From a methanogenic archaeon mixed culture ISO4-G1 (lineage in GTDB: Archaea > Thermoplasmatota > Thermoplasmata > Methanomassiliicoccales > Methanomethylophilaceae): a DNA stretch of 64,000 nt. Of this stretch, positions 6,502 through 57,487 are shown piece by piece. Each line of letters opens with the position of its first letter. Positions within the stretch are counted from its first letter, which is position 1. The notes under the pieces were generated by a model that was given only the letters and a program-made list of their open reading frames with translations, was not told where the DNA came from and ran no database searches. Where the stretch lies: NCBI GenBank assembly GCA_001563305.1, contig CP013703.1, positions 1,039,773 through 1,103,772 on the forward strand, written 5' to 3'. The position numbers and the translations under genes were made by a program.

Positions 6502-6505
6502 TAGG

Positions 6506-6526
6506 GATGCATTCATCCAACATCCA
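6506..6526. promoter_or_regulatory. palindrome GGATG-CATT-CATCC (plus an extra CATCC) about 57 bp upstream of the mtaA-like gene
   Basis: Seen directly. The same GGATG/CATCC half-sites recur upstream of mtaC at 55361-55620. Confidence 0.3.
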
Positions 6527-6575
6527 GTGCTTTTTGACTCATAGTCTTTTATCGGCGTAAGCCCTGTCTTGTCCT

Positions 6576-7625
6576 ATGATCGATGCGGGACACAGGGATT
6601 GTGTTCAGGCAGCCCTGAACCATGAGAGGACCGAAAGGACGCCAGTCAACAACTTCGTTCTGGCCACCGCCGCTCGCAGTGCGGGAGTGACCGTGGACTG
6701 TGCCAGGTGGGATCCGAAGATCTCAGCGAAGGTCTCCGTGGACCACGCGATCAAGACGAAATCGGATTTCGTCAAACCCGTGTTGGACTCGCAGGTCCCA
6801 TACAAGGATCTTGGGATGAAGGTCCGCTTCCCCGAGGATGACTACGGTCAGATTCTGGAACCCATCGCCACGGATTCGGAGGGACTTGATAAACTCGCAT
6901 TGTTCGACCCTTCGAGGGCGTCCGAGTGCCCCTCGTTCACCAAGGTCTTCGTGGAGGGGTTGCAGGAGACCGCCAGGATACTTCCCGAGGACCTCCACAT
7001 CTGCGGACTCTCATGGGGTCCGTTCACCACCGGCGGTTACATCATGGGTGCGGAGAACATGATCATGAACGTGTTCATGGACCCGGACCTCGTGACCAAG
7101 CTCATGAAGAAGGTAACTGGATTCGTTGCCGATATGCAGGCGGTCATGCTCGATGCCGGTGCAACCGTGATGTGGATGGCCGATCCGACATCCTCGGAGG
7201 ACCTCATAGCACCAGACATGTTCTTGGACTACTCCGCCCCGTACATCAAACAGGTCGTGGACAAGGTCAACAAGATGGACAACACCACACCGAAGTTCGT
7301 CCACATCTGCGGCAACACGCTGGACCTCATCCCCCATATGCCGATGACGGGCGCTGACTGCCTGAGCTTCGACCATGCCGTGGACCCCACGAAGGCCAAG
7401 CAGGCCGCCGGTAAGAAGGTGTCCATCATGGGCAACATCGATCCCGTCGAGGTCATGATGATGGGAACACCGGAGTCCATCACGAAGGAATGCTACAGGG
7501 TCATCGATGCCGCGGGACAGGACGGAGGGTTCATACTGGCGCCCGGATGCGAGACGCCGATACAGACCTCGGACGAGAACGTGCTGGCCATGGGCAACGC
7601 CGCCAGGACTTATTGGTCCAGATGA
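6576..7625 (+). CDS. methylcobamide:CoM methyltransferase, MtaA/MtbA family (URO-D fold)
   Basis: 349 aa with uroporphyrinogen-decarboxylase-like sequence and N-terminal 'AALNHERTERTPV' similar to the MtaA 'ALNGE.VDRVPV'. Which methyl substrate it serves is not resolvable. Confidence 0.75.
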   Translation: MIDAGHRDCVQAALNHERTERTPVNNFVLATAARSAGVTVDCARWDPKISAKVSVDHAIKTKSDFVKPVLDSQVPYKDLGMKVRFPEDDYGQILEPIATDSEGLDKLALFDPSRASECPSFTKVFVEGLQETARILPEDLHICGLSWGPFTTGGYIMGAENMIMNVFMDPDLVTKLMKKVTGFVADMQAVMLDAGATVMWMADPTSSEDLIAPDMFLDYSAPYIKQVVDKVNKMDNTTPKFVHICGNTLDLIPHMPMTGADCLSFDHAVDPTKAKQAAGKKVSIMGNIDPVEVMMMGTPESITKECYRVIDAAGQDGGFILAPGCETPIQTSDENVLAMGNAARTYWSR

Positions 7626-18782: not shown

Positions 18783-18990
18783 TATCGACGATTTTCGATT
18801 ACGTCTATTGTCGAATATTGGATGATAAAACTGCCAAAAAGCTCATTTTTGTTAGACATCTGACGAATTCTACTGATTTCATACAATTTTCTTATCTTTT
18901 TTACGATATCCGTAGATGTTCATACGTAAAATGAAGAATCCGCAACATCAACTCCCATAGTATTATATTAAGGATTAAAGATGGACATGC

Positions 18991-21093
18991 ATGAAAGGAC
19001 TATTGACACCCAGGTCTGTGGCCATCATTGGAGCGTCCAATGATGAGTCGAAGCTAGGTGGGATGCTTCTAAAGAACATGATCAACGCCGGATTTACCGG
19101 CAACCTGTACCCCGTCAACCCCAAGGGCGGAGAAATTCAGGGCCTGAAGGCCTACACATCGATCACGGAGGTCCCCGAACCCGTCGACCTCGCGGTCATC
19201 TCCATCAAGGCCGCACTCGTCCCCGACGAGATGGCAAACCTGAAGAAGAACGGCTGCCACTGCGCCACCATCCTCACGGCAGGATTCAAGGAGGACAGCC
19301 CCGAGGGAAAGATCCTGGAACAGAAGCTCGTCGCCGCCGCCAAAGAGGCCGATGTCAGGTTCTTCGGACCGAACTGCTTCGGTAACATGAACCCCTGGGC
19401 AGGAGTCAACGCGACATTCGCTCACCTCCTCCCCCGCAAGGGACACATCTCGATCTTCTCCCAGTCCGGAGCAGTCGGATCGTCCATCATCGATTGGGCG
19501 TACTTCAACAAGATCGGAATCGCCAACTTCGTCACGTTCGGAAACAAGGCCGACCTCGACGAGGCGGACATCATCCCCGAGATCTCCGCTGACCCCAACA
19601 CGAAGGTCATCGGAATGTACTGCGAGGGAATCTCCAACGGACACAGGTTCGTGGAGGCCATCAAGAACATGCCCGTGGAGAAGCCTATCGTCGTCTACAA
19701 GTCCGGAAGGACCCAGGCGGGAGCCGCAGCGGCATCCTCTCACACCGGATCGCTGGCAGGGGCCGACGCGGTCAACAACGTCATATTCAAGAAGCTCAAC
19801 GTCTACAGGGCCAGCAGCCTGGACGACATGTTCGACGTCCTCAACGTCTTTAGCGGATGCAGCGAGATGAAGAAGGGCGGACTCGGAATCATCACGAACG
19901 CCGGCGGTCTGGGAGTCATGTCCGCGGATGCGGCGTTCGATGCGAAGAACGTCCACGCGGTCAAGTTCTCCGACGAGACCATCGCGGAGATCAGGAGGAG
20001 GCTCCCCACCGTCGCCGGTGTCACCAACCCCATCGACATCCGCGGAGACGCCAAGCCCGAGTACTTCAAAGAGGTCATCGACATCCTTTCACACGACCCC
20101 GAGGTCGGCGCACTGGTCATCATGGGATCCCCGCTGGACACAGCGGACCTGGAAGCGGTCGCACAGTCCATCGTCGAGATCAAGGACCAGATCCCCGTCC
20201 CCTTCGTCGTCTGCTTCGCAGGCGGTCACAAGTGCGACAGGGCGAACAGCTACCTCAAGGAGGCCGGCATCCCCACATACCCCACACCCGACAGGGCCAT
20301 CCACGCCCTCGACGTGATGAGGACATACACGATCAACAAGGAGAAGACCCACACCCCTATGGCATACCCCAAGGTCACCGGCGGAGGAAGGGACGCAGCC
20401 AAGAAGGTCATCGACAAGGCCAAGGCAGAGGGCAGGGACTCCCTGTCCGAGGCCGAGGGTAAGGAGATCCTCAAGGCATACGGAGTACCCACCCCCGGAG
20501 AGGCCACCGTCAACTCGGCGGAGGAAGCGGCCAAGGAGTGTAACAGGATCGGATACCCCGTCGTCATGAAGATCGTCTCCCCCGACATCAAGCACAAGAC
20601 CGATGTGGGCGGAGTCGTCGTCGGAGTTAAGAACGCCGACGATGCGAAGGCAGCGTACACCAGGATCATGGACAACTGCACCAAGAATGTGCCAGGTGCC
20701 AAGATCGACGGTGTCTCCATCCAGCAGATGGTCTCCGGGCAGGAGGTCATCCTCTCGATGATCCGCGACTCGCAGTTCGGACCCGTCGTGTCCTTCGGAC
20801 TCGGAGGTATCTACGTTGAGATCCTGAGGGAGATCTCCCAGGCCCACGTCCCCATGACGGAGGAGCAGCTGGACGAGATGATCACCTCCACCAAGGCATA
20901 CAAGCTGATGTCCGGTGCAAGGGGACTCGCCAAGTCCGACATCCCTGCGATGAAGGAAGCGATCAAGAGGATCGCGCTCATCGCAGTGGAGAACCCCGAG
21001 ATCCACGAGCTGGAGATCAACCCGGTCATCGTGCAGGTCGAGGGCAAGGGCGCCTACGCGGTCGACGCGCTGGTCACCCTCGTCAAGAACTGA
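18991..21093 (+). CDS. acd: acetyl-CoA synthetase (ADP-forming), fused alpha/beta subunits
   Basis: 700 aa with an N-terminal CoA-binding/succinyl-CoA-synthetase-like domain and a C-terminal ATP-grasp domain. Confidence 0.9.
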   Translation: MKGLLTPRSVAIIGASNDESKLGGMLLKNMINAGFTGNLYPVNPKGGEIQGLKAYTSITEVPEPVDLAVISIKAALVPDEMANLKKNGCHCATILTAGFKEDSPEGKILEQKLVAAAKEADVRFFGPNCFGNMNPWAGVNATFAHLLPRKGHISIFSQSGAVGSSIIDWAYFNKIGIANFVTFGNKADLDEADIIPEISADPNTKVIGMYCEGISNGHRFVEAIKNMPVEKPIVVYKSGRTQAGAAAASSHTGSLAGADAVNNVIFKKLNVYRASSLDDMFDVLNVFSGCSEMKKGGLGIITNAGGLGVMSADAAFDAKNVHAVKFSDETIAEIRRRLPTVAGVTNPIDIRGDAKPEYFKEVIDILSHDPEVGALVIMGSPLDTADLEAVAQSIVEIKDQIPVPFVVCFAGGHKCDRANSYLKEAGIPTYPTPDRAIHALDVMRTYTINKEKTHTPMAYPKVTGGGRDAAKKVIDKAKAEGRDSLSEAEGKEILKAYGVPTPGEATVNSAEEAAKECNRIGYPVVMKIVSPDIKHKTDVGGVVVGVKNADDAKAAYTRIMDNCTKNVPGAKIDGVSIQQMVSGQEVILSMIRDSQFGPVVSFGLGGIYVEILREISQAHVPMTEEQLDEMITSTKAYKLMSGARGLAKSDIPAMKEAIKRIALIAVENPEIHELEINPVIVQVEGKGAYAVDALVTLVKN

Positions 21094-22314: not shown

Positions 22315-22385
22315 CCTATAAGTGGTAAATTATATCCGTTGTTCGATTCTGATACATGCTGGCTGGATGAGTTAGGACAATATAT

Positions 22386-22423
22386 CCAACCGTATTATAT
22401 ATACGGATTGGGATTACTAATCC
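22386..22423. promoter_or_regulatory. two adjacent palindromes (CCAACCGTA-TTATATA-TACGGATTGG and GGATTA-C-TAATCC) upstream of the ABC-importer island
   Basis: Seen directly, 45-80 bp upstream of the 22469 start. The first flanks a TATATA box. Confidence 0.3.
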
Positions 22424-23349: not shown

Positions 23350-24714
23350 ATGAAAACATCCATGAAAGTTGTTTTGAGCCTTGTTCTGGTCTTCATTGGA
23401 ATAACTTTAGCGGTAGTTTTCACACCACAAGTGGAGTCGGCGTACGCACAGGGAATCATCCTAGATTTCGGGGATTATGACATTTACTATCTCGGTATTG
23501 ATGATGAGGATGAGAACGCAATCGATTCCGTCAACAAACTCTGCGACTACTATTCCATGTCGATAACATGGAACGGGAACCAGATCTCAAAGATTTCCAA
23601 GGAATATATTGATTATCCAGAATCAGGAAGCACAGCAACCTGGAAACTGTATATCAACGAAAAGGACACTATCGGTTGGAAACTGTTCGATGGATCCGCT
23701 GAAAAGCTCCACATCGGTGATTACTCGGCAGTTTGCTGGGGGCTCTGCGAAAAGGATGAGGAACCTACACCTGGCGTAGATGCCATGGGGATCTGCTTCT
23801 ACGGTTACGGACAAAGCTACCGCATTGTATCACTAGCACCGTCCTGTACCGAGACGATAGCCGCTTCAGGCGCTGGTAATATCATAGTCGGCGCCGATGA
23901 ATTCAGCAATTATCCGCTCTACATCAAACAAGCAATGGAGTCGGGTGCTATCGTTTCAGTTGGAGGGTACACCAATCCCAGTTACGAAGTGATAGCACAA
24001 TTGAATCCGGATATTGTTATAGGCGTTGCCGACCAGTCTACACATCGCTCAGTAATAGAAAAGATGAGGGCCCACGGGGTCCACTGTCTAGCCACCTACA
24101 CGGGTGACAGCATCAAGACAATCATGGACAATACGTACATGATCGGTGCGGCAATGAACTATCAGCTCAAATCCACACAGACCATGCAACAGATCGAGGA
24201 TGCACTGGAAATACTGGATGCAGAACTATCTTCCGGATTATCGCACAGATCTGATGTTATGATCTCCCTTTCAACCTCCAAATCACCCTGGGTGGCAGGA
24301 GGCAATACTTACGCTTCTGATGTAATAAGTCGCGCGTTGTGTAATAATATATACTCATCAGAAACAGGATGGGCGATGGTCAACAGTGAAACTGTTCCCT
24401 CGCGCGATCCTGAATATATCATCGTAGTTTCGTCTGATTACGGTAATACAGATGAAGACTACAATAACATGATCTCCTCCCTCTCTGCAGAATGGAGGAA
24501 TACAACTGCCTTCAAACAAGGTAACATCTTTTTGCTCACCGGAGGGGCCACAGATTTAGCATCTCGTCCTTCCACACGCATAGCACAATTCACAGAACTC
24601 ATGTGCAGGATGATCCAACCAGAAATCTTCAACGATATCAATCTACCTCATCACATCGGTGACGATTACAAGGATTACCTGACGATAACGAAAGAATTGG
24701 GGTTCGACACATGA
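23350..24714 (+). CDS. periplasmic-binding-protein (BtuF/FhuD class III) with extra N-terminal DUF4430-like domain
   Basis: Signal/TM at N-terminus. Residues about 150-454 are BtuF-like (IVSLAPSCTE..., NPDIVIG). The N-terminal 120 aa carry the W..Y.NG..W module. Confidence 0.65.
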   Translation: MKTSMKVVLSLVLVFIGITLAVVFTPQVESAYAQGIILDFGDYDIYYLGIDDEDENAIDSVNKLCDYYSMSITWNGNQISKISKEYIDYPESGSTATWKLYINEKDTIGWKLFDGSAEKLHIGDYSAVCWGLCEKDEEPTPGVDAMGICFYGYGQSYRIVSLAPSCTETIAASGAGNIIVGADEFSNYPLYIKQAMESGAIVSVGGYTNPSYEVIAQLNPDIVIGVADQSTHRSVIEKMRAHGVHCLATYTGDSIKTIMDNTYMIGAAMNYQLKSTQTMQQIEDALEILDAELSSGLSHRSDVMISLSTSKSPWVAGGNTYASDVISRALCNNIYSSETGWAMVNSETVPSRDPEYIIVVSSDYGNTDEDYNNMISSLSAEWRNTTAFKQGNIFLLTGGATDLASRPSTRIAQFTELMCRMIQPEIFNDINLPHHIGDDYKDYLTITKELGFDT

Positions 24715-27700
24715 TGAAACAGAACACGGTTCTAAAGACCTCTGCTTTGGTAGCGATCCTCGTGGTAACATCTCTCTTCCTGTTCGTGCCAGAGTTGGAT
24801 GCAGATGGTGCATACATCCTCATCGACAAAGGAGACGGAGACACCTATTGGTATTCCGGAACCACAGAGACAGTCGCTGATTCATTCAGTACGGCCGCCC
24901 AATCCCTGGGATTGGACCTGAACATCGACGGTTCTAAAATAACTGTTGACGGAGTATCTTCGATTACCATCGGAAGCCAAACCGTATCCTGGAGAATCTA
25001 TCAGTGGGGGGATGGATGGGTCGACGTCACATCTTCTATCGATATGAGCTCCGCGCCCACATCATCCATGGCCATCGGGTTGTATCCCGCGGGCACAACC
25101 CCTACCGAGACGCCCGCGTTCATGGACTCATGGACCCAGGTCCGCGGAAACGCCTCAATGACAGGTATACAGAATGCCAATCTGGATTCCGAGAAGACAA
25201 TGGAGAACGTACTAGCATGGTCAAGAGGGGATAACGACTACATCACCGGTTGCGTACTCGTGGCCCGTGAGCATGTCTATGGATTCTTCAACGGCGGATA
25301 CATGAACACCCAAAGTACCCCTGCATTGTTCTGCTTCAACAGATTTACGGGAGAGACAGAGTGGATCGTTAACGTTCCTGCAGGAGTCGGATATGAGACC
25401 ATGTCAGGCTGTATAGTCGGCGATTACTACTATCTCCCGACCAGTTACGGATACATCTACAGGATTCCACTGGATAACCCAGGTGAGGCCTCATACTATG
25501 TCCAGATGTCCTCAAGGCTCATGGTAGATGAGGACAAGATGCCTTCAGTGACTTCCGTGAAATATAAGGCAACAGGGGAAGGCACCTACCATGATGCCCC
25601 TCTGGAGATTATGGACACTAACGCTTTCGATATACCAGTCAGCATCGGATCTACCTATGACATCCAGATATCGGATAGTAGCAGAACCTACAACGGGACA
25701 TTAACCGTCAACAACGAAGATGCACTCGGGGTAAAAATAACCGGAAATACCGAAGAAGACAAGAGTCTCATCGGAGACTACTCCTCTCGCATAAGCTATT
25801 CGTATTCCGAAGTTACAAAGACATTCATCTCGAAGACCAGATCCCCGAACATGGAAGGGCGCACGATATACAACACTGGGCCCGCTTCCATCACATACTA
25901 CGGGGGCGCACTGTTCTTCGGCACCAGTTCAGGATACACCTATGCCCTGGATTTGGATCTAAATACCCTGTGGAAGACCGACGTTAGGAGTCAAAACTAC
26001 TACGATTCTGTCATGATTTGTGATGACAGAGTATTCGTGGGAACTTACAGCGGAAAACTGTACGCATTAGATGTCTCCACTGGAGAGATCAAAGCATCGG
26101 TAACAGCAGCCTCCTACCCATCCACCGTCTACGGTGACGGAGGAAGAGTCTGCACGCCTGTGAAAGTGGATGACATTCTATTCTTCTCATCATCCGACGG
26201 ATTAGGGATGAACAGTACCCAGGGAGGATTCTCTGCATACACATTCAAAAACGATTCGTTCACGAAGATCATGTCCAACACCGACTATGGTCAAGCCTCA
26301 ACATACATGACAGTAGTGATAAATACTGAATTCAAAGGAGTCTACTTTACCACAGATTACGGTCTGATGAGACTGTCCACCGATATGCAACTCGAGATCA
26401 TCAATGAGAAGATGACGGGAGTACGTGCATCCCCAGTGCTTGTCAACGGCGATACTCTCCTAATGCAGGATTACGCCTATGCCAAGAACAACGTGGGCGG
26501 ACAGATGTACAGAGTGACCCTCGATGGTACAATCGAAGGACAATACCAGAGGCCCAGTGAGGTGGATCAGTGGACTATGAGCCCAATCACGGCCATAGGC
26601 GAGTACCTGTACGGCGGAACAGATAATGGGTTCTTCATACTGGAAGGGAAAATGCCCGAAGTCAAAGATGATTCGGGCACCGGAGGGATCAATCCTCTAT
26701 GGATTGCTTTGGCGATAATCGCAGTTATAATCAACATACTGCTCATCATAAGCTTCTTCCTAGCCAAGAAGAGCAACATGTCGACGGGAAAATACATCGA
26801 ATCAAAATTCTCGAGGATCAGCGGATTCCACAACGACTCCATGTCAAAGACGCAGGCAAACAAACGTCGTCTATTGTTCGTCCTGATACTTGGAATCATA
26901 ATCATGCTTATCATGTTCATATGCTGTCTGGCATATGGGCCTTCGATGAGCCTCTCGCCCATAGATGCTTTCTCCAATCTGATATCCGCTATACAAAAAG
27001 GTGGAGAAGGATTGACTCTGTCCGAACTTGTTGTGTACGAATCGCGTCTACCTCGTGCGATAGCCGCGATTGCCGTAGGACTGGGATTAGCAGTAGCCGG
27101 TTGCATATATCAAGCTGTCATCCGTAACCCGATGGTGGACCCGTACATAATGGGTGTTTCATCCGGAGCAGGAACCTTCGCGGTTGCTGCCATAGCGAGC
27201 GGATTCACATTCTTTGGACTTCTGGATAACTCTGAATTCATGATTCCTGTCCTCGCGATTGTCGGTGGACTGCTCGCGTTTGGACTCACCATGCTTCTTG
27301 CCTCCAAGGCAGGGAACACGGCCACAGGGTATGTGCTTGCAGGAGTTGTTATCGGATTGGCGTTCACATCAATCCAGACGGTCATTTTGACAACATCTGA
27401 TTCGGAAAAGCTCCACAGTGCGATATCTTGGCTGTACGGAAGCTTCACCAGTGTCGATTGGGGAACCGTTTGGCTGATATTCTTCCCTGCACTGTTCCTA
27501 TCACTGACTTTCTTGATCTGGGCCAAGGAGCTGAATCTTGTTCTTCTGGGCGACGATAACGCACAACAAATGGGTCTGAATGTCAAAAAATTCGATGCCC
27601 TGATGCTCATACTTGCATCGGTCCTGACATCTGTCTGCGTCGCATTTGTGGGAATCATCGGATTTGTAGGACTGGTCGTTCCTCACATCTGCCGTATGAT

Positions 27701-27893
27701 CTTGGGAGGAGATCACAGGCTGGTCCTACCTGCATCAATGGTCCTAGGTGCAGCATTGATGCTGCTTGCGGATCTGTTGGCAAGAATGCTAATGATCCCG
27801 TTGGAATTACCAGTCGGTGCCATCACCACTGTCGTCGGAGTACCACTGTTCGCTTATCTACTCATTAAGAGAGGGAGGATGTACAATGGATGA
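24711..27893 (+). CDS. fusion protein: signal/TM anchor - DUF4430-like domain - PQQ-like beta-propeller - TM - FecCD/BtuC-type ABC permease
   Basis: 1060 aa. Residues about 380-620 hold repeated YALD..TG..W/K PQQ-type blades. Residues about 700-1060 are a canonical FecCD permease (RLPRAIAAIAVG..., GVSSGAG...). Confidence 0.75.
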   Translation: MMKQNTVLKTSALVAILVVTSLFLFVPELDADGAYILIDKGDGDTYWYSGTTETVADSFSTAAQSLGLDLNIDGSKITVDGVSSITIGSQTVSWRIYQWGDGWVDVTSSIDMSSAPTSSMAIGLYPAGTTPTETPAFMDSWTQVRGNASMTGIQNANLDSEKTMENVLAWSRGDNDYITGCVLVAREHVYGFFNGGYMNTQSTPALFCFNRFTGETEWIVNVPAGVGYETMSGCIVGDYYYLPTSYGYIYRIPLDNPGEASYYVQMSSRLMVDEDKMPSVTSVKYKATGEGTYHDAPLEIMDTNAFDIPVSIGSTYDIQISDSSRTYNGTLTVNNEDALGVKITGNTEEDKSLIGDYSSRISYSYSEVTKTFISKTRSPNMEGRTIYNTGPASITYYGGALFFGTSSGYTYALDLDLNTLWKTDVRSQNYYDSVMICDDRVFVGTYSGKLYALDVSTGEIKASVTAASYPSTVYGDGGRVCTPVKVDDILFFSSSDGLGMNSTQGGFSAYTFKNDSFTKIMSNTDYGQASTYMTVVINTEFKGVYFTTDYGLMRLSTDMQLEIINEKMTGVRASPVLVNGDTLLMQDYAYAKNNVGGQMYRVTLDGTIEGQYQRPSEVDQWTMSPITAIGEYLYGGTDNGFFILEGKMPEVKDDSGTGGINPLWIALAIIAVIINILLIISFFLAKKSNMSTGKYIESKFSRISGFHNDSMSKTQANKRRLLFVLILGIIIMLIMFICCLAYGPSMSLSPIDAFSNLISAIQKGGEGLTLSELVVYESRLPRAIAAIAVGLGLAVAGCIYQAVIRNPMVDPYIMGVSSGAGTFAVAAIASGFTFFGLLDNSEFMIPVLAIVGGLLAFGLTMLLASKAGNTATGYVLAGVVIGLAFTSIQTVILTTSDSEKLHSAISWLYGSFTSVDWGTVWLIFFPALFLSLTFLIWAKELNLVLLGDDNAQQMGLNVKKFDALMLILASVLTSVCVAFVGIIGFVGLVVPHICRMILGGDHRLVLPASMVLGAALMLLADLLARMLMIPLELPVGAITTVVGVPLFAYLLIKRGRMYNG

Positions 27894-50822: not shown

Positions 50823-51425
50823 TCATCCGGTCATCTTCGACCCGATGAAATCATAGAGGGCTTCCATCCCCGCATCCGTCTTGGCGGAGACTGAGAATAC
50901 AGGTTTCGACGGATAGTTCTCCGAGAACCATCCCGCTATGCGTGATATCTCATCGTTCGTGACCAGGTCCGATTTGTTTATCAGGACGATGTCGGAACCG
51001 GACATCTGCATCTTGTAGAAGTTCTCCTTCTTCTCGATCAGCGAGTCGAAACGGTCCGCATCGGCGAGTCCGATGATGGAGCAGGAGTCCTCGTCGATCA
51101 TCGACGTGTGGACGAACTGCTTCACCTTATGTGGAAGTGCCAGACCGGTAGGTTCTATGATCAGGATGTCGGGATCGATGTCGCTCTTGATCTGCTTGAG
51201 GGTGGCCTGCAGGGATCCGACAAGGCTGCAGCATATGCATCCCTCGGGAAGCTCCGTGGCGCTGAACCCCTGAGCCTTTATCGTGGATCCGTCCACCCCG
51301 ACCTCGCCGGATTCGTTGACTATGATGGCAACGCTCTTCCCCTTGCCCGTGTACAGTCTCGCGAGGCTCAGAAGGATCGTGGTCTTTCCGCTGCCAAGGA
51401 ATCCGCCGATGATGAACACGTGCAT
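50823..51425 (-). CDS. CobW/HypB/UreG-family (G3E) GTPase
   Basis: P-loop GGFLGSGKTT and a GCICCS metal-binding motif. Last gene of the mta operon. Confidence 0.75.
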   Translation of the reverse strand: MHVFIIGGFLGSGKTTILLSLARLYTGKGKSVAIIVNESGEVGVDGSTIKAQGFSATELPEGCICCSLVGSLQATLKQIKSDIDPDILIIEPTGLALPHKVKQFVHTSMIDEDSCSIIGLADADRFDSLIEKKENFYKMQMSGSDIVLINKSDLVTNDEISRIAGWFSENYPSKPVFSVSAKTDAGMEALYDFIGSKMTG

Positions 51426-51434
51426 TTCGAATCC

Positions 51435-53051
51435 TCACTGGACCAATCTCAGGGAGTCGTACTTATAGACTTTCTTGGGGCAACTGAACTGGCATCTGTA
51501 GCATGCGGTTCCGAGACAGTTCTTGGTCTGTACCACGATCTCGTTGTCGTCCATGACCTTCAGTGCATGCTCGGGGCATTCGTTCTCGCATTTCTTGCAG
51601 CCAATGCAGCCTTCCATGTATCCGCGAAGCTCGGTCCCGATGTCGTGAAGGATGAAGAGCCCTCTGTCACCCAGATCAGGGATGTCACGCTGGACCATCC
51701 TGTGGACCGTGGGGTTACCGGTCGGTTTCGGCAGCTCCTGTATGCCGGCGATCGCGTTGTTCCTGTTGTACATCTCCATGCTCATGCCCTCGTCGCAGAC
51801 CGCGAGTTCCTGGGTGTAGATCTGCTCGAACACCTCGTCCCCGGCGAACATTATGTGGTTGGCCCTGATGCCGTTGGCTATGTCCTGGAGCTTATCCAGC
51901 AGCTCTGGGTCCCTGAGGATGTCCGTAGCCATTGCCAGCGATGTATTCCCGTACTGGTAGATCGTGTTGCACGAAGGGGGCAAGAGTCCCACCTTCCTGG
52001 CCTTGACAGCATCCACGTATGTACCGGATGCGCCGGCCATGTACATGATGTCCAGATCGCTGAACTTGATGCCTGCGTGCTCCAGAAGGGTGAAGTGACC
52101 GGCCCTCATCGCACCGATGGCCTTCAGGGCCTCCGATATGTCGTGTGAATCGATGGTGATACCATCCTGCAGATGGAGCAGCCCGTCGCTGGTGTCGATC
52201 TTCCCCTTCCTCCACAGATGGGCCTCGAGAAGGGCGGATACGGCCGCGATCACACCTGTTCCGGTGATACCTTTGGCCTTCCCGCTCATCGGACCCTCCG
52301 GCGTGACGGTCTCCAGGGCTATGTCGACCCTGTCGCCGTTCTCAGGTATTATATCGTCATTCAGGACCTTGCATATGTACTGGAAGTCGTACTCCAGGTC
52401 CGAGATGGCCCCGGGCCCGGCGAGCATACCGCATCTTATGGACTGGCCTTCCATGGCAGGTCCGGCCGCGGCCGAACCCGTGTATATGTCGTCGCCGACC
52501 TTCAGCGCCATCTCCGCGTTCGTACCGTAATCCGTGACGAGGCAGTTCTCCTTCTGCTCGAGGAAACCGCTCTTGTACATCATGGCCAAGGCGTCCGCAC
52601 CGATCTCGTGCCTGATGGCCGGAGGGACCAATAATTCGCATCCGTCCTTGACATCGAGACCGACGTCCACCGCGGAGAATGTACCAGCATCCCTCTTCTG
52701 GGCGACTATCCCTCTTGCCTTGTGGGCGTTGTCGCCTGCGAACGCAAGATCGTCCACGGGGATCCCCTGGAAGAGCGACAGCTGGATAGGGTTTCCGCAG
52801 ATGCTTACCCTCTCGACCTTGTTCAGATCGACGCCTAGGGTCCTGATCAGCTTGTTAACGGTATCCATCAGGATGTTGTGGGCCGTCTCAGTGCCGTTGT
52901 TGATGCAGAACGTAAGGTGATCCATGATGTTGGCACCCGGCAAGGGATGACATTCCGTGACAGATGTCGAAAGGATCCTGCCGTTCGAGAGATCGACCGC
53001 ATGACCCCTTGTTCCGCTCGTACCTATATCCAGGGAAATACCGTAACTCAT
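51435..53051 (-). CDS. ramA: RamA-like corrinoid reductive activation protein (ASKHA ATPase + 2x[4Fe-4S] ferredoxin domain)
   Basis: 538 aa with a C-terminal CIGCKKCENECP...CYRCQFSCP. Positioned between mtaB and the cobW-like gene. Confidence 0.7.
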   Translation of the reverse strand: MSYGISLDIGTSGTRGHAVDLSNGRILSTSVTECHPLPGANIMDHLTFCINNGTETAHNILMDTVNKLIRTLGVDLNKVERVSICGNPIQLSLFQGIPVDDLAFAGDNAHKARGIVAQKRDAGTFSAVDVGLDVKDGCELLVPPAIRHEIGADALAMMYKSGFLEQKENCLVTDYGTNAEMALKVGDDIYTGSAAAGPAMEGQSIRCGMLAGPGAISDLEYDFQYICKVLNDDIIPENGDRVDIALETVTPEGPMSGKAKGITGTGVIAAVSALLEAHLWRKGKIDTSDGLLHLQDGITIDSHDISEALKAIGAMRAGHFTLLEHAGIKFSDLDIMYMAGASGTYVDAVKARKVGLLPPSCNTIYQYGNTSLAMATDILRDPELLDKLQDIANGIRANHIMFAGDEVFEQIYTQELAVCDEGMSMEMYNRNNAIAGIQELPKPTGNPTVHRMVQRDIPDLGDRGLFILHDIGTELRGYMEGCIGCKKCENECPEHALKVMDDNEIVVQTKNCLGTACYRCQFSCPKKVYKYDSLRLVQ

Positions 53052-53161
53052 AGTATCATCTCAGCTGCACCTACGAAATATGCTTACAAATATGTGAATG
53101 TTGGAGGTCCCGGCGATACGAGGAGATCGGACCCGCCGGTAAATGGTTTTCAAGGGGGAAT

Positions 53162-54562
53162 TCAGAGTCCGTAGTTCTTCATGTTGAAGTTGGGGACGAT
53201 GTCCTTGTACTCCTTTGCTGCCCACTCGACGAACTTGTCCTCGTCATCGGGGAGTGCGGAGAGCTTCTTGTTGATGTCCTGGAGGGTCTCGAGCTGCTTG
53301 GTGGTGAGTCCGAGCTCCTTGGATTCGTAGCCCTTAAGGAGGATCTCGACTGCCTTGGTTCCGGCGGCCTTGGCCCTGAGGTAGAGGTTGTCACCGTACT
53401 GGGCGATTGCCTTTCCAATCTCGTATGCGTGGTCGTACGCGAGGATGTATGCCTCGGGTCCTCTGTACCTGTCAGAGTACATGTACATGTCCCTGAGGGT
53501 CTTCTCCTGCTTGAGCTGGATCGCGGTGTTCATGAGTGAGGCCTCGTATCCGATCGATCCGAACCAGCACTGGACGGAGGTTCCTCCGAACTCGGGGTGG
53601 TACTCGACGGACTCGTTGGACCACAGGTCACAGCACTGGGCGATGAGGTTACCCTGCAGATCGCAGTGTGCGCACTGGCAGTTCTTTCCCTCCTGTGCGG
53701 TGGGCTTTCCTGCGATGGCTTTGACGATGGGTCCCTCGTAACCGCAGTCCTTGTCGGGACCGACGGCTCCGGCCTCCCAGGCGCAGAGCGTCCTTGCGGC
53801 GGAGATTGCACGGGTGACGGCGGAGAAGGTCCTCTGGACATCCTGGTCCATCATTCCTCCGGCCATGAACATGGAAACGTTCGCTCCGGAACAGTTGGTG
53901 TCTCCTCCCGCAACGCAGTGGTTCTTCTTCGCGATGTCGACGAGCTGCTCCCAGAGCCAGGTCATATCGATGGATCCGAGGTAACCGACTCCGAACAGGA
54001 ATGCGACGATGTCTCCGTTGGTGACTGCGTAATCTGCGAACTCCTTTCCTCCGACAGACTCGATGGAGAGGTTGTTGCATCCGTTCTCACATGCGATGTC
54101 CGCACACTCGAACAGCTTCTCGGGATAGGCGTGGGCGGAGTCCATGCCGGGCCTGAGTCCGTGGTCGGCCTCACGCTGGTCGGGGATGGTCTGCCTGGTA
54201 CCGCAGTTGAGTCCGTACTCCTCGTGGTACTTCTCGCACATCTCCTGCTGTCCCGCGACGACGGGTGCGGAGAGCTTGGCCTGGTTCATCTGGGAGACCC
54301 ACTCGGTCTCGAGCTGGACATTGGGGAATCCGACTGTGAGTGCCCTGTTGAGGATGTCCTTGGTGATGTAGTCCACGTACTCCTTTCTGAGCCTCTCGGG
54401 ATCCTTCTCGGTTCCGGGCCTGGGTGCGTAGTTGATCTCGGGGATGACGTATCCGGCTCCGATCTTCAGACCGAATCCGTAGGACACGGGATTCTTCGAG
54501 AAACCGAAGACCATGTCGTCTGCACAGTCGTATGCCATCTTTGTGTATCTTGATACTGCCAT
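53162..54562 (-). CDS. mtaB: methanol:corrinoid methyltransferase MtaB
   Basis: 466 aa, collinear with Methanosarcina MtaB from the N-terminus (MAVSRYTKMAY...EINYAPRP...) to the C-terminus (ENYG). Confidence 0.9.
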   Translation of the reverse strand: MAVSRYTKMAYDCADDMVFGFSKNPVSYGFGLKIGAGYVIPEINYAPRPGTEKDPERLRKEYVDYITKDILNRALTVGFPNVQLETEWVSQMNQAKLSAPVVAGQQEMCEKYHEEYGLNCGTRQTIPDQREADHGLRPGMDSAHAYPEKLFECADIACENGCNNLSIESVGGKEFADYAVTNGDIVAFLFGVGYLGSIDMTWLWEQLVDIAKKNHCVAGGDTNCSGANVSMFMAGGMMDQDVQRTFSAVTRAISAARTLCAWEAGAVGPDKDCGYEGPIVKAIAGKPTAQEGKNCQCAHCDLQGNLIAQCCDLWSNESVEYHPEFGGTSVQCWFGSIGYEASLMNTAIQLKQEKTLRDMYMYSDRYRGPEAYILAYDHAYEIGKAIAQYGDNLYLRAKAAGTKAVEILLKGYESKELGLTTKQLETLQDINKKLSALPDDEDKFVEWAAKEYKDIVPNFNMKNYGL

Positions 54563-54563
54563 C

Positions 54564-55346
54564 TCACTGACCCCCTACAATTGCATCCCATTCTTCTCTA
54601 ACCTGTTTCCACGTGTAACCCTGCCTGATCTTCTCTGCGATCAAGGGGGTCTGAGGTGCCTTCTCGGAATAGATTCCGAGGTCGTAGGAGTTAGCGTACT
54701 CCCTGTTGACTGCACCGCCGCATCCCATCAGGGGAATCTCGATTCCCTTCTCCATGAGGATCTTGGCCTCGGCAGGGAATGCGGACATGGTCGTGGTCAT
54801 GAGTGCGGTTCCGCTTGCGAACAGGGGCTTGACCTCCTCGACCTTTGCGATGAAGTTTGTGATTGCCACATCACGTCCCATGTCGATGACGTCGTATCCG
54901 GAGGACCTGACCATGACGGCCGCGATGTTCTTTCCGATGTCGTGGGGGTCTCCCTCGGCAGCGTGCATGACGACGGTTCCCTTGGACTCTCTTCCGCCGG
55001 GGACCATCTTGACTGCGATCGCGATTCCGATCTCCATTGTCTTTGCTGCCATCATGATCTCGGGAAGGAAGTAGACGTGCTCTGCGTAGAGCTTTGCGAC
55101 ACATTCCATACCTGCGACCAGTCCATTGTTGATGACGTCGAGGGGATCTTTCTGTTTGAGGGCCTCCGTAACGACGGGGACCACTGTCTTGAATCTCATA
55201 TAGAGAATCTCTTCTGCTACCTGCCTTAATACAGGATCTTCGGGCAAGAGTTTCTTTGCCATCTGCTCGGGTGTGAGTGATACCTGAGTCTCGATGTCGT
55301 AACGCTTGAGGACCTTTGTGAAATCTGCACCTTCCTTACTAAGCAT
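54564..55346 (-). CDS. mtaC: methanol corrinoid protein MtaC (B12-binding)
   Basis: 260 aa with a DxHxxG cobalamin-binding motif (GDPHDIGKN) and an N-terminal cap helix domain. 1-nt gap to mtaB. Confidence 0.9.
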   Translation of the reverse strand: MLSKEGADFTKVLKRYDIETQVSLTPEQMAKKLLPEDPVLRQVAEEILYMRFKTVVPVVTEALKQKDPLDVINNGLVAGMECVAKLYAEHVYFLPEIMMAAKTMEIGIAIAVKMVPGGRESKGTVVMHAAEGDPHDIGKNIAAVMVRSSGYDVIDMGRDVAITNFIAKVEEVKPLFASGTALMTTTMSAFPAEAKILMEKGIEIPLMGCGGAVNREYANSYDLGIYSEKAPQTPLIAEKIRQGYTWKQVREEWDAIVGGQ

Positions 55347-55607
55347 CTAATCACCTGCTTGGATGTTATCAGGATGCCTAACTTTATAACCTGTCTCAAA
55401 ATACAAACTCGATGCTCCAATTATAACAAATTTAAATTTATCTACAATATATCCTACCTAGATGGATGATACATCCAGCACACAATTTACATCAATTGTT
55501 CAATTCTGGATAGTGGTATTTACCGCATCTAACTAAATCAATCAATCTATACTAATTCTTGTATAATTGGATAACTATTTGTATAATTATATTATTATAC
55601 AATATGG
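55347..55607. promoter_or_regulatory. AT-rich divergent intergenic region with mtaC promoter elements and GGATG/CATCC palindromes
   Basis: SD-like AGGTGAT about 7 nt before the mtaC ATG. TTATAAA box about 50 bp upstream. TGGATG-ATA-CATCCA at 55463-55477 and ATGGATG-T-CATCCAT at 55604-55618. Direct repeat TTGTATAATT x2. Confidence 0.45.
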
Positions 55608-57125
55608 ATGTCATCCATAGTCTATTTGAAAAATCCGAGGTCCAATACTATTTATGCCTATCTCAATGAATCCGTTTGGGATCCAGAAAGGAAGAAGACG
55701 GTATACAGGAGGAAGTGCGTAGGGCATGTGGACCCGGAGACTGGGGAGATCGTTCCCAACAGGAAGACGTTGGTGAAAGACAGTCCGATCGTGAAATCCA
55801 GATACCTGTGCGCCATCTATGACAGGGTATCCGAGGACATGCACCTTACGGAGACACTCAAACTTTCCTTCCCGGACCACTGGAAGAAGATCCTTTCCAT
55901 AGCCTACTACCTGCTATCAACCAACGAACCGCTCTCGTTCTGCAAACAATGGTCGGAACAGCATAAGACCCCATACAACCAGACCATCAGCAACAATCTG
56001 ATCAACGACCTCCTGACATCCATCAACCCCAATGGGATCTCCCTTTTTTTCACACTCTGGAAACTGCGTGTCCAGCCTGTGGAAACATTCACCGCGTCCA
56101 TCAATATCGGAGGCCACAGGATCAACCTCAGCGAGTTCTCAAAAGACTATATGGAGATCAGCAACGACTTCGACAACAGTCTGAAGATGACCATGTACTT
56201 CTCCACTAAGAGCAACGTCCCGATTTGCTATCAGCTGTCCGACCCCATCACCGGGCGCAAGATCGGCGATTACGATGTCTCCCCCAACAGCTTCAGCAGG
56301 CTGTCGTCCTTCATCGACCATACCCGCGGTGACAACGTGGACCCTTCACTGGTGCCGTATGCGGACAGCAACATCACCGTCCGCACCTACCCCAACAACG
56401 ATTTCGTCAGGAACCTTGTCGAGAAGGTCGGATCGACCATCACCAACCCTGAGAACTACAGGATCATCCTGGGAACCCCGATGTTCATCGAGAGCTTCAT
56501 GCAGCACGTCAGCGGGAAGAAGTACTATGTCCACATCTTCTTCGACCCGAACCAGGCCGTGACGGACCTGTCCGCATTCATCTCGGTTATCAACATGTGC
56601 AAATACGAACTCGAGATGGATTCCCCTGTGGAGAGGCATCAGCAGTTGTACGACGAGTTCCTGATAGTCAAGGAGGATGAGAAAGGGAACACTGTGGTGG
56701 AACTGAACAGTGAGGCTATCATGAACCACAACAAGTTCCTTGGATACAACGTCCTGATATCGAACTTCACGGGTAACGCCTCCACTGCCATCGTCCCGTT
56801 CATCCAGAGGTCCAGCGTCTCAAGGAGGTTCGATTCGATAAGGAACGAGTACGACAGCACTACCATGAACCTCTTCACGGAGACCAACTATCTGAGCAGG
56901 GTCTTCCTACAGTTCATATCACTGATCCTCAGGGTCGGCGTCCTGAACGTGATGAACACGAAGAAGCTCAACAGGACCATGACCTTCAAGGAGGTGGTCA
57001 TGGAGATATCCAACCTCAGGACCGTGAAGATTCCGGGGGTAAAGAGACCCCAGAACACGTTCGCCAGCGATGAGCAGCTCCGTATCCTGAGGGCTTTCGA
57101 CGTGCCCATCGACGATGAGAAATGA
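55608..57125 (+). CDS. IS1634/IS4-family transposase-like protein (possibly degenerate or domesticated)
   Basis: N-terminal IVYLKN..TIYAYLNESVWDPERKK..RRKCVGHVDPETGEIVP resembles the conserved N-terminal block of IS1634-type transposases, and GYNVLISN resembles their internal motif. A clean DDE triad could not be confirmed by eye. Composition looks AT-shifted. Confidence 0.4.
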   Translation: MSSIVYLKNPRSNTIYAYLNESVWDPERKKTVYRRKCVGHVDPETGEIVPNRKTLVKDSPIVKSRYLCAIYDRVSEDMHLTETLKLSFPDHWKKILSIAYYLLSTNEPLSFCKQWSEQHKTPYNQTISNNLINDLLTSINPNGISLFFTLWKLRVQPVETFTASINIGGHRINLSEFSKDYMEISNDFDNSLKMTMYFSTKSNVPICYQLSDPITGRKIGDYDVSPNSFSRLSSFIDHTRGDNVDPSLVPYADSNITVRTYPNNDFVRNLVEKVGSTITNPENYRIILGTPMFIESFMQHVSGKKYYVHIFFDPNQAVTDLSAFISVINMCKYELEMDSPVERHQQLYDEFLIVKEDEKGNTVVELNSEAIMNHNKFLGYNVLISNFTGNASTAIVPFIQRSSVSRRFDSIRNEYDSTTMNLFTETNYLSRVFLQFISLILRVGVLNVMNTKKLNRTMTFKEVVMEISNLRTVKIPGVKRPQNTFASDEQLRILRAFDVPIDDEK

Positions 57126-57487
57126 ATAAAACGATTGAATCCCTGCGAACCCTCATGTCGGACTGCAAACTATGCGTGGATGCCGGTGTGTGCAAGATGA
57201 TCACCACCATCACGGCCAAGACAGACGATATCGGCATGGTCGAACTGGATGTCAAGAGCGACTGCCCCCACATCCTGAAGATGTGCTGGCATCTGGAACC
57301 CATCAGCCCCTATTCGGAGGTGGAGTCCGAGTTCTACAAGTCCGAGATATACAGGCTAGCGCAGGAGGCGCCCCTCCCGCATACTGCCTGCCCCGTACCC
57401 TCCGCCATGATCAAGGCAATAGAGGTCGCAGGTGGCCTCGGGCTCAAGCGTGACGTTCACATCACGTTCATGGACCCCGAGGAATGA
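57122..57487 (+). CDS. hypothetical Cys-containing protein (121 aa), translationally coupled to the upstream gene
   Basis: ATGA overlap with the stop of the transposase-like gene. CxxCxxxxxC cluster near the N-terminus. Confidence 0.4.
   Translation: MNKTIESLRTLMSDCKLCVDAGVCKMITTITAKTDDIGMVELDVKSDCPHILKMCWHLEPISPYSEVESEFYKSEIYRLAQEAPLPHTACPVPSAMIKAIEVAGGLGLKRDVHITFMDPEE

What the first reader, a model, noticed from the sequence alone, without database searches (positions are those of the whole stretch)
55361..55620. Recurrent GGATG/CATCC palindromic motif upstream of both the mtaCB operon and the distant mtaA-like gene
Between mtaC and the transposase-like gene the pentamer GGATG or its complement occurs 6 times in about 260 bp, against roughly 0.5 expected by chance. 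Two occurrences are palindromes, TGGATG-ATA-CATCCA (55463-55477) and ATGGATG-T-CATCCAT (55604-55618). A third palindrome, GGATG-CATT-CATCC, sits 57 bp upstream of the MtaA/MtbA-family gene at 6506-6519, 49 kb away. A shared operator for a methanol-regulon transcription factor is a reasonable hypothesis. The variable spacer (1-4 nt) argues for caution.
Basis: seen in the sequence. Interest (0 to 1): 0.55.

Follow-up and report, generated by a model that had tools for sequence, protein, structure and literature searches.

The report
Conserved TGGATG motif in methanol-operon promoters
The repeated GGATG/CATCC motif upstream of the methanol methyltransferase genes is a real regulatory DNA element, conserved across a family of gut and rumen methanogens, and beside it lies a disabled transposase gene that is always linked to this operon and may be its regulator.

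Summary
The 260-bp region has 6 GGATG/CATCC against 0.48 expected (0 of 5000 shuffles).

The motif is not a local accident. In 33 non-redundant mtaC upstream regions from related Methanomethylophilaceae, CATCCA/TGGATG is the most over-represented hexamer (61 vs 5.5, z 22.7). It usually forms GGATR-N7-YATCC, or an N3 pair, about 10 nt upstream of a TATA box. Those columns are invariant while the flanks have diverged.

A matrix trained only on other genomes ranks the window's central palindrome (55463-55477) 1st and 2nd of 128,000 positions. The mtaA-like upstream site (6505-6526) ranks 3rd.

- The start-codon palindrome (55604-55618) is a by-product of GG+ATG and the Ser-Ser-Ile codons.
- The mtaA-like site is absent from orthologues at 57-86% identity.

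The "transposase-like" gene is not mobile. It has a Tn5-like fold, has lost catalytic residues, and lies next to mtaCB/ramA in every genome examined, down to 25% identity. A second, more conserved element precedes it: TGTATAA-N13-TGTATAAT-N6-ATTATACA (55560-55601).

Best reading: binding sites for a methanol-operon transcription factor. The protein is not identified.

The parts
55463..55477 (.). Central inverted pair TGGATG-ATA-CATCCA (N3). An imperfect N7 register is also present (GGATG-N7-CATCT). It is centred about 37 bp upstream of the mtaC TATA box and sits midway in the divergent intergenic region.
   Evidence: The same position carries GGATG-N7/N3-CATCC in L001, L003, L004 and L024, and half a site in L022. 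It takes ranks 1 and 2 of 128,000 window positions with a matrix trained on other genomes.
55359..55365 (-). Promoter-proximal copy. It reads CATCCAA on the mtaC sense strand, at -19 to -13 from the mtaC ATG, just upstream of the GGTGAT ribosome-binding site.
   Evidence: (C)ATCCAAC is nearly invariant at this place in alignment A1 of 12 orthologous regions. Its positions run from -19 to -32.
55372..55376 (-). Second proximal CATCC on the mtaC sense strand (AGGATG on the + strand). It is not conserved.
   Evidence: Only L020 has a second proximal copy, at a different spacing.
55604..55618 (.). ATGGATG-T-CATCCAT overlapping the start codon of the 505-aa gene. This is a coding and start-context by-product, not an operator.
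   Evidence: The sequence is GG + ATG TCA TCC AT. The Ser2/Ser3 codons vary (TCT, TCC, TCG, TCA) and the GG is present only in the window, L001 and L022.
6505..6526 (.). GGATG-CATT-CATCCA-A-CATCCA cluster. It starts 4 nt after the stop of the Iso_dh-family gene and ends 50 nt before the ATG of the MtaA/MtbA-family gene. A TATA-like TTTTAT lies at 6547-6552.
   Evidence: 3 vs 0.23 expected, P = 0.0006. Matrix rank 3 in the window. Present in the 98%-identical L035 but absent from orthologues at 57-86% identity.
55560..55601 (+). Triple box TGTATAA-N13-TGTATAAT-N6-ATTATACA, ending 6 nt before the ATG of the 505-aa gene. The middle box sits at -28 to -22, which is the TATA position for a leaderless mRNA. 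This is the probable promoter and auto-operator of that gene.
   Evidence: All three boxes are invariant in alignment A1. The heptamer occurs only these 3 times in the window. TGTATAA-N5-10-TTATACA occurs 18 times in 647 kb, always directly upstream of a 505-aa-family gene or its relic.
55568..55573 (+). TGGATA half-site between boxes 3 and 2 of the triple box.
   Evidence: (A/C)TGGATA is kept here in about 9 of 14 orthologues.
55421..55443 (-). Inferred BRE/TATA of mtaC. It reads AGATAAATTTAAATTTGTTATAA on the sense strand. The orthologue consensus is AAAGTTTTATAAATGTTATAA.
   Evidence: Conserved block in alignment A1. Its assignment as BRE/TATA is by consensus only; no transcription start data exist.
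55382..55400 (-). Second conserved block, TTTGAGACAGGTTATAAAG on the sense strand. It is either a second TATA-like promoter or part of the 5' leader.
   Evidence: Nearly invariant in alignment A1. The leader shows no significant RNA fold (z = -0.58).
55506..55512 (-). Conserved TA(G/T)CCAG block. It reads TATCCAG here and TAGCCAG in most orthologues.
   Evidence: AGCCAG is among the top-10 enriched hexamers.
50823..55346 (-). mtaC (54564-55346), mtaB (53162-54562), ramA/RACo (51435-53051) and cobW (50823-51425).
   Evidence: Pfam matches B12-binding, MtaB (687 bits), RACo and cobW.
55608..57125 (+). 505-aa transposase-derived gene, transcribed divergently from mtaC.
   Evidence: No Pfam match; IS1634 model scores 65 bits against a cut-off of 100. 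It aligns full-length with PF01609 transposases at 23-26% identity. The first Asp and the Glu of the DDE triad are replaced. The model (pLDDT 85) matches Tn5 transposase with probability 1.0. It lies next to mtaCB/ramA in every genome examined.
57122..57487 (+). DUF6951 gene (121 aa, Cys-rich). Its start overlaps the stop of the 505-aa gene (ATGA).
   Evidence: Pfam PF22263, E = 3e-31. It is also linked to the same locus in L001, L002, L010 and L028.
6576..7625 (+). MtaA/MtbA-family (URO-D fold) methyltransferase gene.
   Evidence: It scores below the equivalog cut-offs, so substrate specificity is not established.

Best explanation
TGGATG/CATCCA is the recognition element of a sequence-specific DNA-binding protein that controls the methanol methyltransferase operon in Methanomethylophilaceae.

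Arrangement in most promoters: an inverted pair, GGATR-N7-YATCC or the N3 register, lies just upstream of the BRE/TATA box. Further single copies lie upstream. This is where archaeal activators usually bind.

Arrangement in the window:
- The pair at 55463-55477 sits about 37 bp upstream of the inferred mtaC TATA box.
- A conserved single copy (CATCCAA, 55359-65) lies next to the ribosome-binding site. There a bound protein would instead hinder initiation, or the sequence may mark the transcription start.
- The cluster in front of the mtaA-like gene is probably a recent, species-specific addition to the same regulon.

What is shown: enrichment, conservation, and fixed position relative to the TATA box.
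What is inferred: protein binding, the direction of the effect, and any response to methanol.

The binding protein is unidentified. The local candidate is the divergently encoded, catalytically disabled transposase homologue. That gene has its own distinct TGTATAA/TTATACA operator-like boxes.
For: Enrichment in the window.
- These are the two intergenic segments of the window with the most copies.

Unbiased k-mer ranking over mtaC upstream regions from other genomes.
- GGATG ranks 1st of all pentamers (76 vs 14.7, z 17.2).
- TGGATG ranks 1st of all hexamers (61 vs 5.5, z 22.7).
- Against other intergenic DNA the count is 65 vs 9.0, with the hexamer present in 27 of 35 promoters. Density is 7.1 per kb against 1.2 per kb.

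Conservation against diverged flanks.
- In promoter classes B and C the palindrome columns, TATA boxes and ribosome-binding site are the invariant columns. Mean column identity is about 61-62%.

Specificity of the pair.
- GGATR-N7-YATCC occurs 25 times in 621 kb.
- 16 of these lie within 300 nt upstream of mtaC, and 5 more lie in the same cobW-mtaC intergenic regions.

Prospective test.
- A matrix built without the window places its top three hits at 55459, 55466 and 6508.

Orientation and RNA checks.
- Copies occur in both orientations and as dyads.
- There is no Rfam match and no significant RNA fold.
Against: - No protein binding, transcription start or expression data exist for this lineage, so TATA and start-site positions are inferred from consensus.
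- Promoters within a class are homologous, so part of the enrichment reflects shared ancestry.
- The central pair is missing from about half of the class-A orthologues (L005, L006, L007, L019, L020, L021, L031).
- Spacing is not uniform: N3 in the window, N7 in most others, and N4/N11 at the mtaA-like site.
- The mtaA-like site is not conserved.
- In Methanomassiliicoccus luminyensis, a different family, mtaC transcript levels were almost the same on methanol and methylamines (PMC5688252). A methanol-responsive switch is therefore not a given.
Confidence: 0.72

Rival explanations
1. The proximal copies (55359-55376), and by extension the conserved CATCCAAC box, are core-promoter or leader features rather than sites for a regulator. 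They could be an initiator or transcription-start region of a second promoter (GGTTATAAA), or an element of the mRNA 5' leader.
For: CATCCAAC lies 21-26 nt downstream of the conserved GGTTATAAA block, which is the normal TATA-to-start distance. It is always in one orientation at this place.
Against: The same hexamer forms dyads in both orientations upstream of TATA boxes in other promoter classes. The leader has no significant fold (z = -0.58) and no Rfam match.
Confidence: 0.15
2. The motif is a constitutive upstream activating element that gives the very highly expressed mta genes strong transcription. It would be bound by a general or housekeeping factor and would not be a substrate-responsive operator.
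For: In M. luminyensis, mtaC transcripts do not change between methanol and methylamines. The motif lies upstream of BRE/TATA, the position typical of activators.
Against: The motif is confined to mta/cobW control regions: 21 of 25 N7 pairs in 621 kb. A general factor would be expected at other strong promoters. M. luminyensis belongs to a different family and was not examined here.
Confidence: 0.2
3. The repeats are relics of the terminal inverted repeats of the insertion sequence that gave rise to the neighbouring transposase-like gene.
For: The adjacent gene descends from an IS4/IS1634-type transposase. Transposases bind repeats at element ends.
Against: The motif is equally present in mtaC promoters that have no such gene nearby (classes B and C). 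No matching repeat lies beyond the 3' end of the gene. A related active IS has the ends AACCTGCATTCCCGAT, with no GGATG.
Confidence: 0.04
4. The motif is a chance or compositional artefact of picking one pentamer after the fact.
For: The pentamer was chosen post hoc, and GGATG is generally common in this genome (336 vs 261 expected).
Against: 0 of 5000 shuffles reach the observed count. The k-mer ranks first in independent genomes. The cross-genome matrix test succeeds.
Confidence: 0.01

Closest known systems
Msr regulators (MsrA-G) of the mtaCB isozyme operons in Methanosarcina acetivorans (Bose and Metcalf 2008, cited in PMC5688252)
   Same: Dedicated regulators are encoded beside the methanol methyltransferase operons and control them. 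There is one regulator gene per operon, as seen here in L028, where two paralogues flank ramA and mtaCB.
   Different: From general knowledge, Msr proteins are winged-helix (ArsR-like) proteins with a DUF1724 domain. The neighbour here is a Tn5-fold transposase homologue, and no such helix-turn-helix gene lies near the operon. No shared DNA motif is known. The archaeal order is different.
AmzR (MA2561), one-component repressor of methylamine methyltransferase promoters in Methanosarcina (bioRxiv 10.1101/2025.05.05.652248)
   Same: It is a newly recognised, non-canonical DNA-binding regulator acting on the BRE/TATA/start region of a methyltransferase operon.
   Different: AmzR is a PAS/GAF protein with a zipper-like DNA-binding motif. 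It is specific for methylamines, and the paper reports it lost from host-associated methanogens. It has no relation to the 505-aa protein or to TGGATG.
TrmB/TrmBL1 and the TGM palindrome (TATCAC-N5-GTGATA) of Thermococcales (general knowledge)
   Same: A short dyad with a fixed spacer marks a metabolic regulon. Its position relative to BRE/TATA decides between activation (upstream) and repression (downstream). The same logic is proposed here for the distal pair and the proximal copy.
   Different: The sequence and spacer differ. The protein is known there and unknown here.
Transposase-derived regulators, such as the TnpB-derived TldR repressors in bacteria and FHY3/FAR1 in plants (general knowledge)
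   Same: A mobile-element nuclease or transposase has lost catalysis, become fixed at a locus, and is thought to keep sequence-specific DNA binding.
   Different: Here the ancestor is a DDE (Tn5/IS4-IS1634 type) transposase in an archaeon, and any regulatory function is not demonstrated.

Membership tests
Transcription-factor binding site (operator/UAS) of an archaeal regulon | Over-representation beyond base composition in the promoters concerned | tested here: met
Transcription-factor binding site (operator/UAS) of an archaeal regulon | Conservation in orthologous promoters while flanking sequence diverges | tested here: met
   For mtaCB: invariant columns in alignments A2 and A4, and partial conservation (6 of 14) at the central site of class A. 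For the mtaA-like gene: not met.
Transcription-factor binding site (operator/UAS) of an archaeal regulon | Fixed position relative to BRE/TATA | tested here: met
   In classes B and C the pair ends about 10 nt before TAAATA. In the window it is one helical turn further away. TATA boxes are assigned by consensus only.
Transcription-factor binding site (operator/UAS) of an archaeal regulon | Dyad symmetry with constant spacing | tested here: inconclusive
   N7 dominates, with 11 hexamer pairs and 16 pentamer pairs within 300 nt upstream of mtaC. The window site is N3, and the mtaA-like site is N4/N11.
Transcription-factor binding site (operator/UAS) of an archaeal regulon | Demonstrated binding protein and effect on transcription | not testable with these tools
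   This needs EMSA or footprinting, DAP-seq and transcription start mapping.
Insertion sequence of the IS4/IS1634 type (for the 505-aa gene and its flanks) | Intact DDE catalytic triad | tested here: not met
   The first Asp is replaced in all operon-linked members. The Glu of Y-2-R-3-E-6-K is replaced by Ser in the window's clade. There is no PF01609 match, and the IS1634 model scores 65 bits against a cut-off of 100.
Insertion sequence of the IS4/IS1634 type (for the 505-aa gene and its flanks) | Terminal inverted repeats flanking the gene | tested here: not met
   No arm pair brackets 55608-57125. DUF6951 and guaA follow directly.
Insertion sequence of the IS4/IS1634 type (for the 505-aa gene and its flanks) | Multiple copies in varying genomic contexts | tested here: not met
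   It lies next to mtaCB/ramA in 11 of 27 genome loci and in all 6 homologue look-ups (25-47% identity). By contrast, the true transposase P0098 is found in several different contexts.
Insertion sequence of the IS4/IS1634 type (for the 505-aa gene and its flanks) | Transposase fold | tested here: met
   Foldseek matches Tn5 transposase 1muh with probability 1.0 and E = 6e-5. The protein aligns full-length with PF01609 proteins.
Msr-type methanol regulator system (Methanosarcina) | ArsR-like/DUF1724 regulator gene adjacent to mtaCB | tested here: not met
   Genes within about 8 kb on either side carry no such domain. The rest of the genome was not examined.

The most novel reading that the evidence does not exclude
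The 505-aa protein is a domesticated DDE (Tn5-fold) transposase that now serves as the sequence-specific regulator of the methanol methyltransferase operon in Methanomassiliicoccales.

In this reading it binds its own TGTATAA/TTATACA boxes and, directly or with a partner such as DUF6951, the TGGATG sites. The two motifs differ by one base (TGTATA vs TGGATA).

This would be a transposase-derived metabolic transcription factor in archaea, and a handle on the control of methanol-dependent methane formation in gut and rumen.
Probability: 0.35. Interest if true: 0.8.

Novelty: new member of a known kind. Interest (0 to 1): 0.62.

Why it matters
Methanomethylophilaceae are major methanol- and methylamine-consuming methanogens of the rumen and the human gut. 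Nothing turned up in the literature searches on how they control their methyltransferase genes.

A defined, conserved promoter motif gives a concrete target for several experiments:
- footprinting;
- DAP-seq;
- regulon prediction.

The operon-linked, catalytically disabled transposase homologue gives a specific candidate protein to test.

If that protein proves to be the regulator, it would be a clear prokaryotic case of a DDE transposase turned transcription factor.

Tried and rejected
- **Exact-protein look-ups.** Searches for the window's MtaC and 505-aa protein found nothing. The source genome is not in that index.
- **Mobile IS reading of the 505-aa gene.** Rejected because of strict synteny, lost catalytic residues and no flanking repeats.
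- **IS-end origin of GGATG.** Rejected. The related active IS has different ends, and the motif occurs without the gene.
- **RNA element reading.** There is no Rfam match and no significant fold of the mtaC leader.
- **PDB sequence search with the family profile.** It found nothing useful. Only the fold search did.
- **Small divergent regulator gene upstream of the class-C promoters.** I looked for one, but the neighbour there is cobW.
- **L010 region near DUF6951.** It holds only a frameshifted, unrelated transposase.
- **Second corrinoid/MT2 gene pair downstream of mtaB in L024.** Its upstream region showed no clear motif.
- **Restriction-site reading.** GGATG is a type IIS recognition sequence (from memory). 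I set this aside because the word is over-represented rather than avoided in the window, and its clustering is promoter-specific.
- **Is the 505-aa family present elsewhere in the class-B and class-C genomes?** I could not determine this.
Full report
**Observation**

The region lies between mtaC (54564-55346, minus strand) and a 505-aa gene (55608-57125, plus strand).
- It contains GGATG at 55361, 55372, 55464 and 55606, and CATCC at 55472 and 55612.
- Dinucleotide shuffles of this 29% G+C stretch give 0.48 copies on average. None of 5000 shuffles reaches 6.
- The word is commoner in the window as a whole (336 copies). Even so, only one other 260-bp window reaches 6.
Another CATCC follows at 6521, giving 3 copies in the 74-bp gap before the MtaA-family gene (P = 0.0006).
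- Among the 24 intergenic segments I could delimit in the window, these two hold the most copies.
- Pairs of the form TGGATR-N0-12-YATCCA occur nowhere else in the 64 kb.

**Genes**

Pfam confirms several genes:
- MtaC, MtaB, RamA/RACo and CobW on the minus strand;
- a URO-D/MtaA-family gene at 6576;
- DUF6951 at 57122-57487, overlapping the stop codon of the 505-aa gene.

The 505-aa protein has no Pfam match. It gives only a sub-threshold IS1634 match over its C-terminal part.

**Comparative test for mtaCB**

A scan of one genome per species with MtaB returned 27 loci, all Methanomassiliicoccales-type archaeal sequence, although a few records are labelled as other taxa. I later added five more loci by protein look-up. 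I took 260 nt upstream of each of 35 mtaC genes.

Three results stand out.
1. CATCCA/TGGATG is the top hexamer against other intergenic DNA from the same loci. The count is 65 vs 9.0, and 27 of 35 promoters carry it.
2. Against dinucleotide shuffles of 33 non-redundant promoters, GGATG is the top pentamer (76 vs 14.7, z 17.2). TGGATG is the top hexamer (61 vs 5.5, z 22.7). A second background of 18.6 kb of intergenic DNA gives 1.2 hexamers per kb, against 7.1 per kb in mtaC promoters.
3. Alignments show purifying selection rather than mere shared ancestry.
   - In the promoters of the second tandem mtaCB copy (class B, 8 sequences), the invariant columns are TGGA...ATCCA, a second TTGGATG, the TATA boxes and the ribosome-binding site.
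   - In the first-copy promoters (class C, 7 sequences), the invariant columns are GG.T.T...CCATCC and TAAATA.

The common architecture is GGATR-N7-YATCC, ending about 10 nt before the TATA box. An overlapping N3 register is present where the half-site is duplicated (CATCCATCC or TGGATGGATG).

The N7 pair occurs 25 times in 621 kb of held sequence. Sixteen lie within 300 nt upstream of mtaC. Five more lie about 345 nt upstream, in the same cobW-mtaC divergent regions.

**The window's own promoter**

The window belongs to class A, the promoters facing the 505-aa gene. Alignment A1 covers 12 orthologous regions.
- The central pair keeps its place in the window, L001, L003, L004 and L024. L022 keeps half a site. 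Six other orthologues lack it.
- The copy next to the ribosome-binding site, (C)ATCCAAC at 55359-65 in the window, is nearly invariant across the alignment.
- A matrix built from 57 sites in other genomes, with the window excluded, was scanned over both strands of the window. Its three best hits are 55459(+), 55466(-) and 6508(-). These are the two halves of the central pair and the mtaA-like site.

**Sites that do not hold up**

The start-codon palindrome at 55604-55618 is GG + ATG TCA TCC AT.
- The N-terminus Met-Ser-Ser-Ile-Val-Tyr-Leu is conserved in the whole family.
- The two Ser codons vary synonymously among orthologues, and the preceding GG is present in only three.
- It is therefore a by-product, not an operator.

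The mtaA-like upstream cluster has no comparative support.
- It is present in a 98%-identical metagenome contig.
- It is absent from about 50 orthologues at 57-79% identity, and from the closest ones found by protein search (86% and 79%). Their intergenic gap is about 49 nt instead of 74.
- The gene order Iso_dh then MtaA-like is conserved, and so is a TATA box about 30 nt before the ATG.
- The site is statistically notable within this genome. I read it as a recent gain, with low certainty.

First, the 505-aa gene is not a mobile element.
- It lies divergently next to mtaC in 11 of the 27 genome loci (30-70% identity).
- Homologues at 25-47% identity (P0032, P0034, P0040, P0043, P0044, P0076) all lie next to mtaCB or ramA. 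All six look-ups gave this result.
- One genome carries two paralogues, one facing ramA and one facing mtaCB.
- The family aligns full-length with true PF01609 transposases. The first catalytic Asp is replaced in all operon-linked members. The Glu of the Y-2-R-3-E-6-K signature is replaced in the window's clade.
- The AlphaFold model (pLDDT 85) matches Tn5 transposase with probability 1.0.
- The most conserved part is a beta-rich N-terminal domain of about 60 residues. It is shared with the active transposases and is a plausible DNA-binding module.

Second, the best-conserved DNA in the region is not GGATG.
- It is TGTATAA-N13-TGTATAAT-N6-ATTATACA at 55560-55601, ending 6 nt before the ATG of the 505-aa gene.
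- All three boxes are invariant in alignment A1.
- The boxes persist in the most distant family members examined.
- The heptamer occurs only these three times in the window.
- The inverted pair occurs 18 times in 647 kb, each time directly upstream of a family member or its relic.
- The middle box sits at the TATA position for a leaderless transcript. I read the set as that gene's promoter and auto-operator. This is an inference.

**Mechanism**

Shown: a short word, often as a dyad, is specifically enriched and conserved at a fixed distance upstream of TATA boxes of mtaCB across genera.

Inferred:
- It is bound by a sequence-specific protein.
- The distal dyad acts positively, because sites upstream of BRE/TATA are typical of archaeal activators (general knowledge).
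- The proximal copy either overlaps the transcription start or acts negatively.

The protein is unknown.
- In favour of the 505-aa protein: location, retained DNA-binding-like domain, and the one-base similarity between TGTATA and TGGATA.
- Against it: the motif is equally strong in promoters with no such gene within 5 kb. I could not check the rest of those genomes.

Whether control responds to methanol is open. In M. luminyensis, mtaC transcripts were nearly the same on methanol and methylamines (PMC5688252).

**Comparison with known systems**

The nearest functional analogues are the Msr regulators beside the mtaCB operons of Methanosarcina, and AmzR for the methylamine operons. Neither protein family is present near this operon, and no shared motif is known. 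Literature searches found nothing on this motif, on DUF6951, or on a transposase-like gene linked to mtaCB.

**Verdict**

It is a new regulatory motif of a known kind, with an unusual candidate regulator beside it. One of the three palindromes is a coding by-product. The link to mtaA is specific to this species.

Noticed in passing
window 55560-55601: Triple box TGTATAA-N13-TGTATAAT-N6-ATTATACA directly upstream of the 505-aa gene. These are the only three copies of the heptamer in the window. The boxes are invariant in all orthologues, and the pair is found only upstream of this gene family in 647 kb of related sequence.
   Followed up: yes
window 55608-57125: The 'transposase-like' gene is a Tn5-fold protein with lost catalytic residues. 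It is fixed next to mtaCB/ramA across Methanomassiliicoccales down to 25% identity, so it is a domesticated transposase.
   Followed up: yes
window 57122-57487: A Cys-rich DUF6951 gene whose start overlaps the stop of the 505-aa gene (ATGA). It recurs beside mta loci in L001, L002, L010 and L028. No literature on it was found.
   Followed up: partly
window 22364-22403: TGGATG-N13-TATCCA immediately followed by a TATA-like TATTATATATA. It lies upstream of a 278-aa gene with no Pfam match and a Peripla_BP_2/FecCD ABC transporter (23350-27893), and just after a corrin methylase gene. This is a weak matrix hit that could tie corrinoid uptake to the same regulon.
   Followed up: partly
window 18815-18830: A single good matrix hit (ATATTGGATGATAAAA, 14.8 bits) lies about 170 nt upstream of an ADP-forming acetyl-CoA synthetase-like gene (18991-21093).
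   Followed up: no
L008:4130-4200 and the same place in L009, L014, L017, L026, L027: A hairpin in the presumed mtaC 5' leader (AAGGGnn...nnCCCTT) just before the ribosome-binding site, kept by compensatory changes across class-B promoters. It is not present in the window's promoter.
   Followed up: no
L024:6600-6680, L003 and L004 at the same place: A conserved G+C-rich element (GATCGATGAAGGGGCCCCCTTCACAACCTCCTTCGGGAGGGGGCC) in the spacer downstream of mtaB. It may be a structured RNA.
   Followed up: no
L008:1249, L009:1280, L014:1283, L017:1136, L027:2958: An additional conserved GGATG-N7-(C/T)ATCC pair about 345 nt upstream of the first mtaC copy, inside the divergent cobW-mtaC region. It may serve the cobW/ramA side.
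   Followed up: partly
L094:1372-3126: The related active IS (1755 bp, ends AACCTGCATTCCCGAT) carries a perfect palindrome CGTTATATAT-TATA-ATATATAACG at its own transposase promoter. The placement is the same as that of the TGTATAA/TTATACA pair in the domesticated genes.
   Followed up: partly
window 5515-7625: The gene order Iso_dh-family dehydrogenase then MtaA-like methyltransferase is conserved in nearly all of about 50 orthologous contigs. The gap is short, with a TATA box about 30 nt before the ATG, which suggests a leaderless or very short-leader mRNA.
   Followed up: partly
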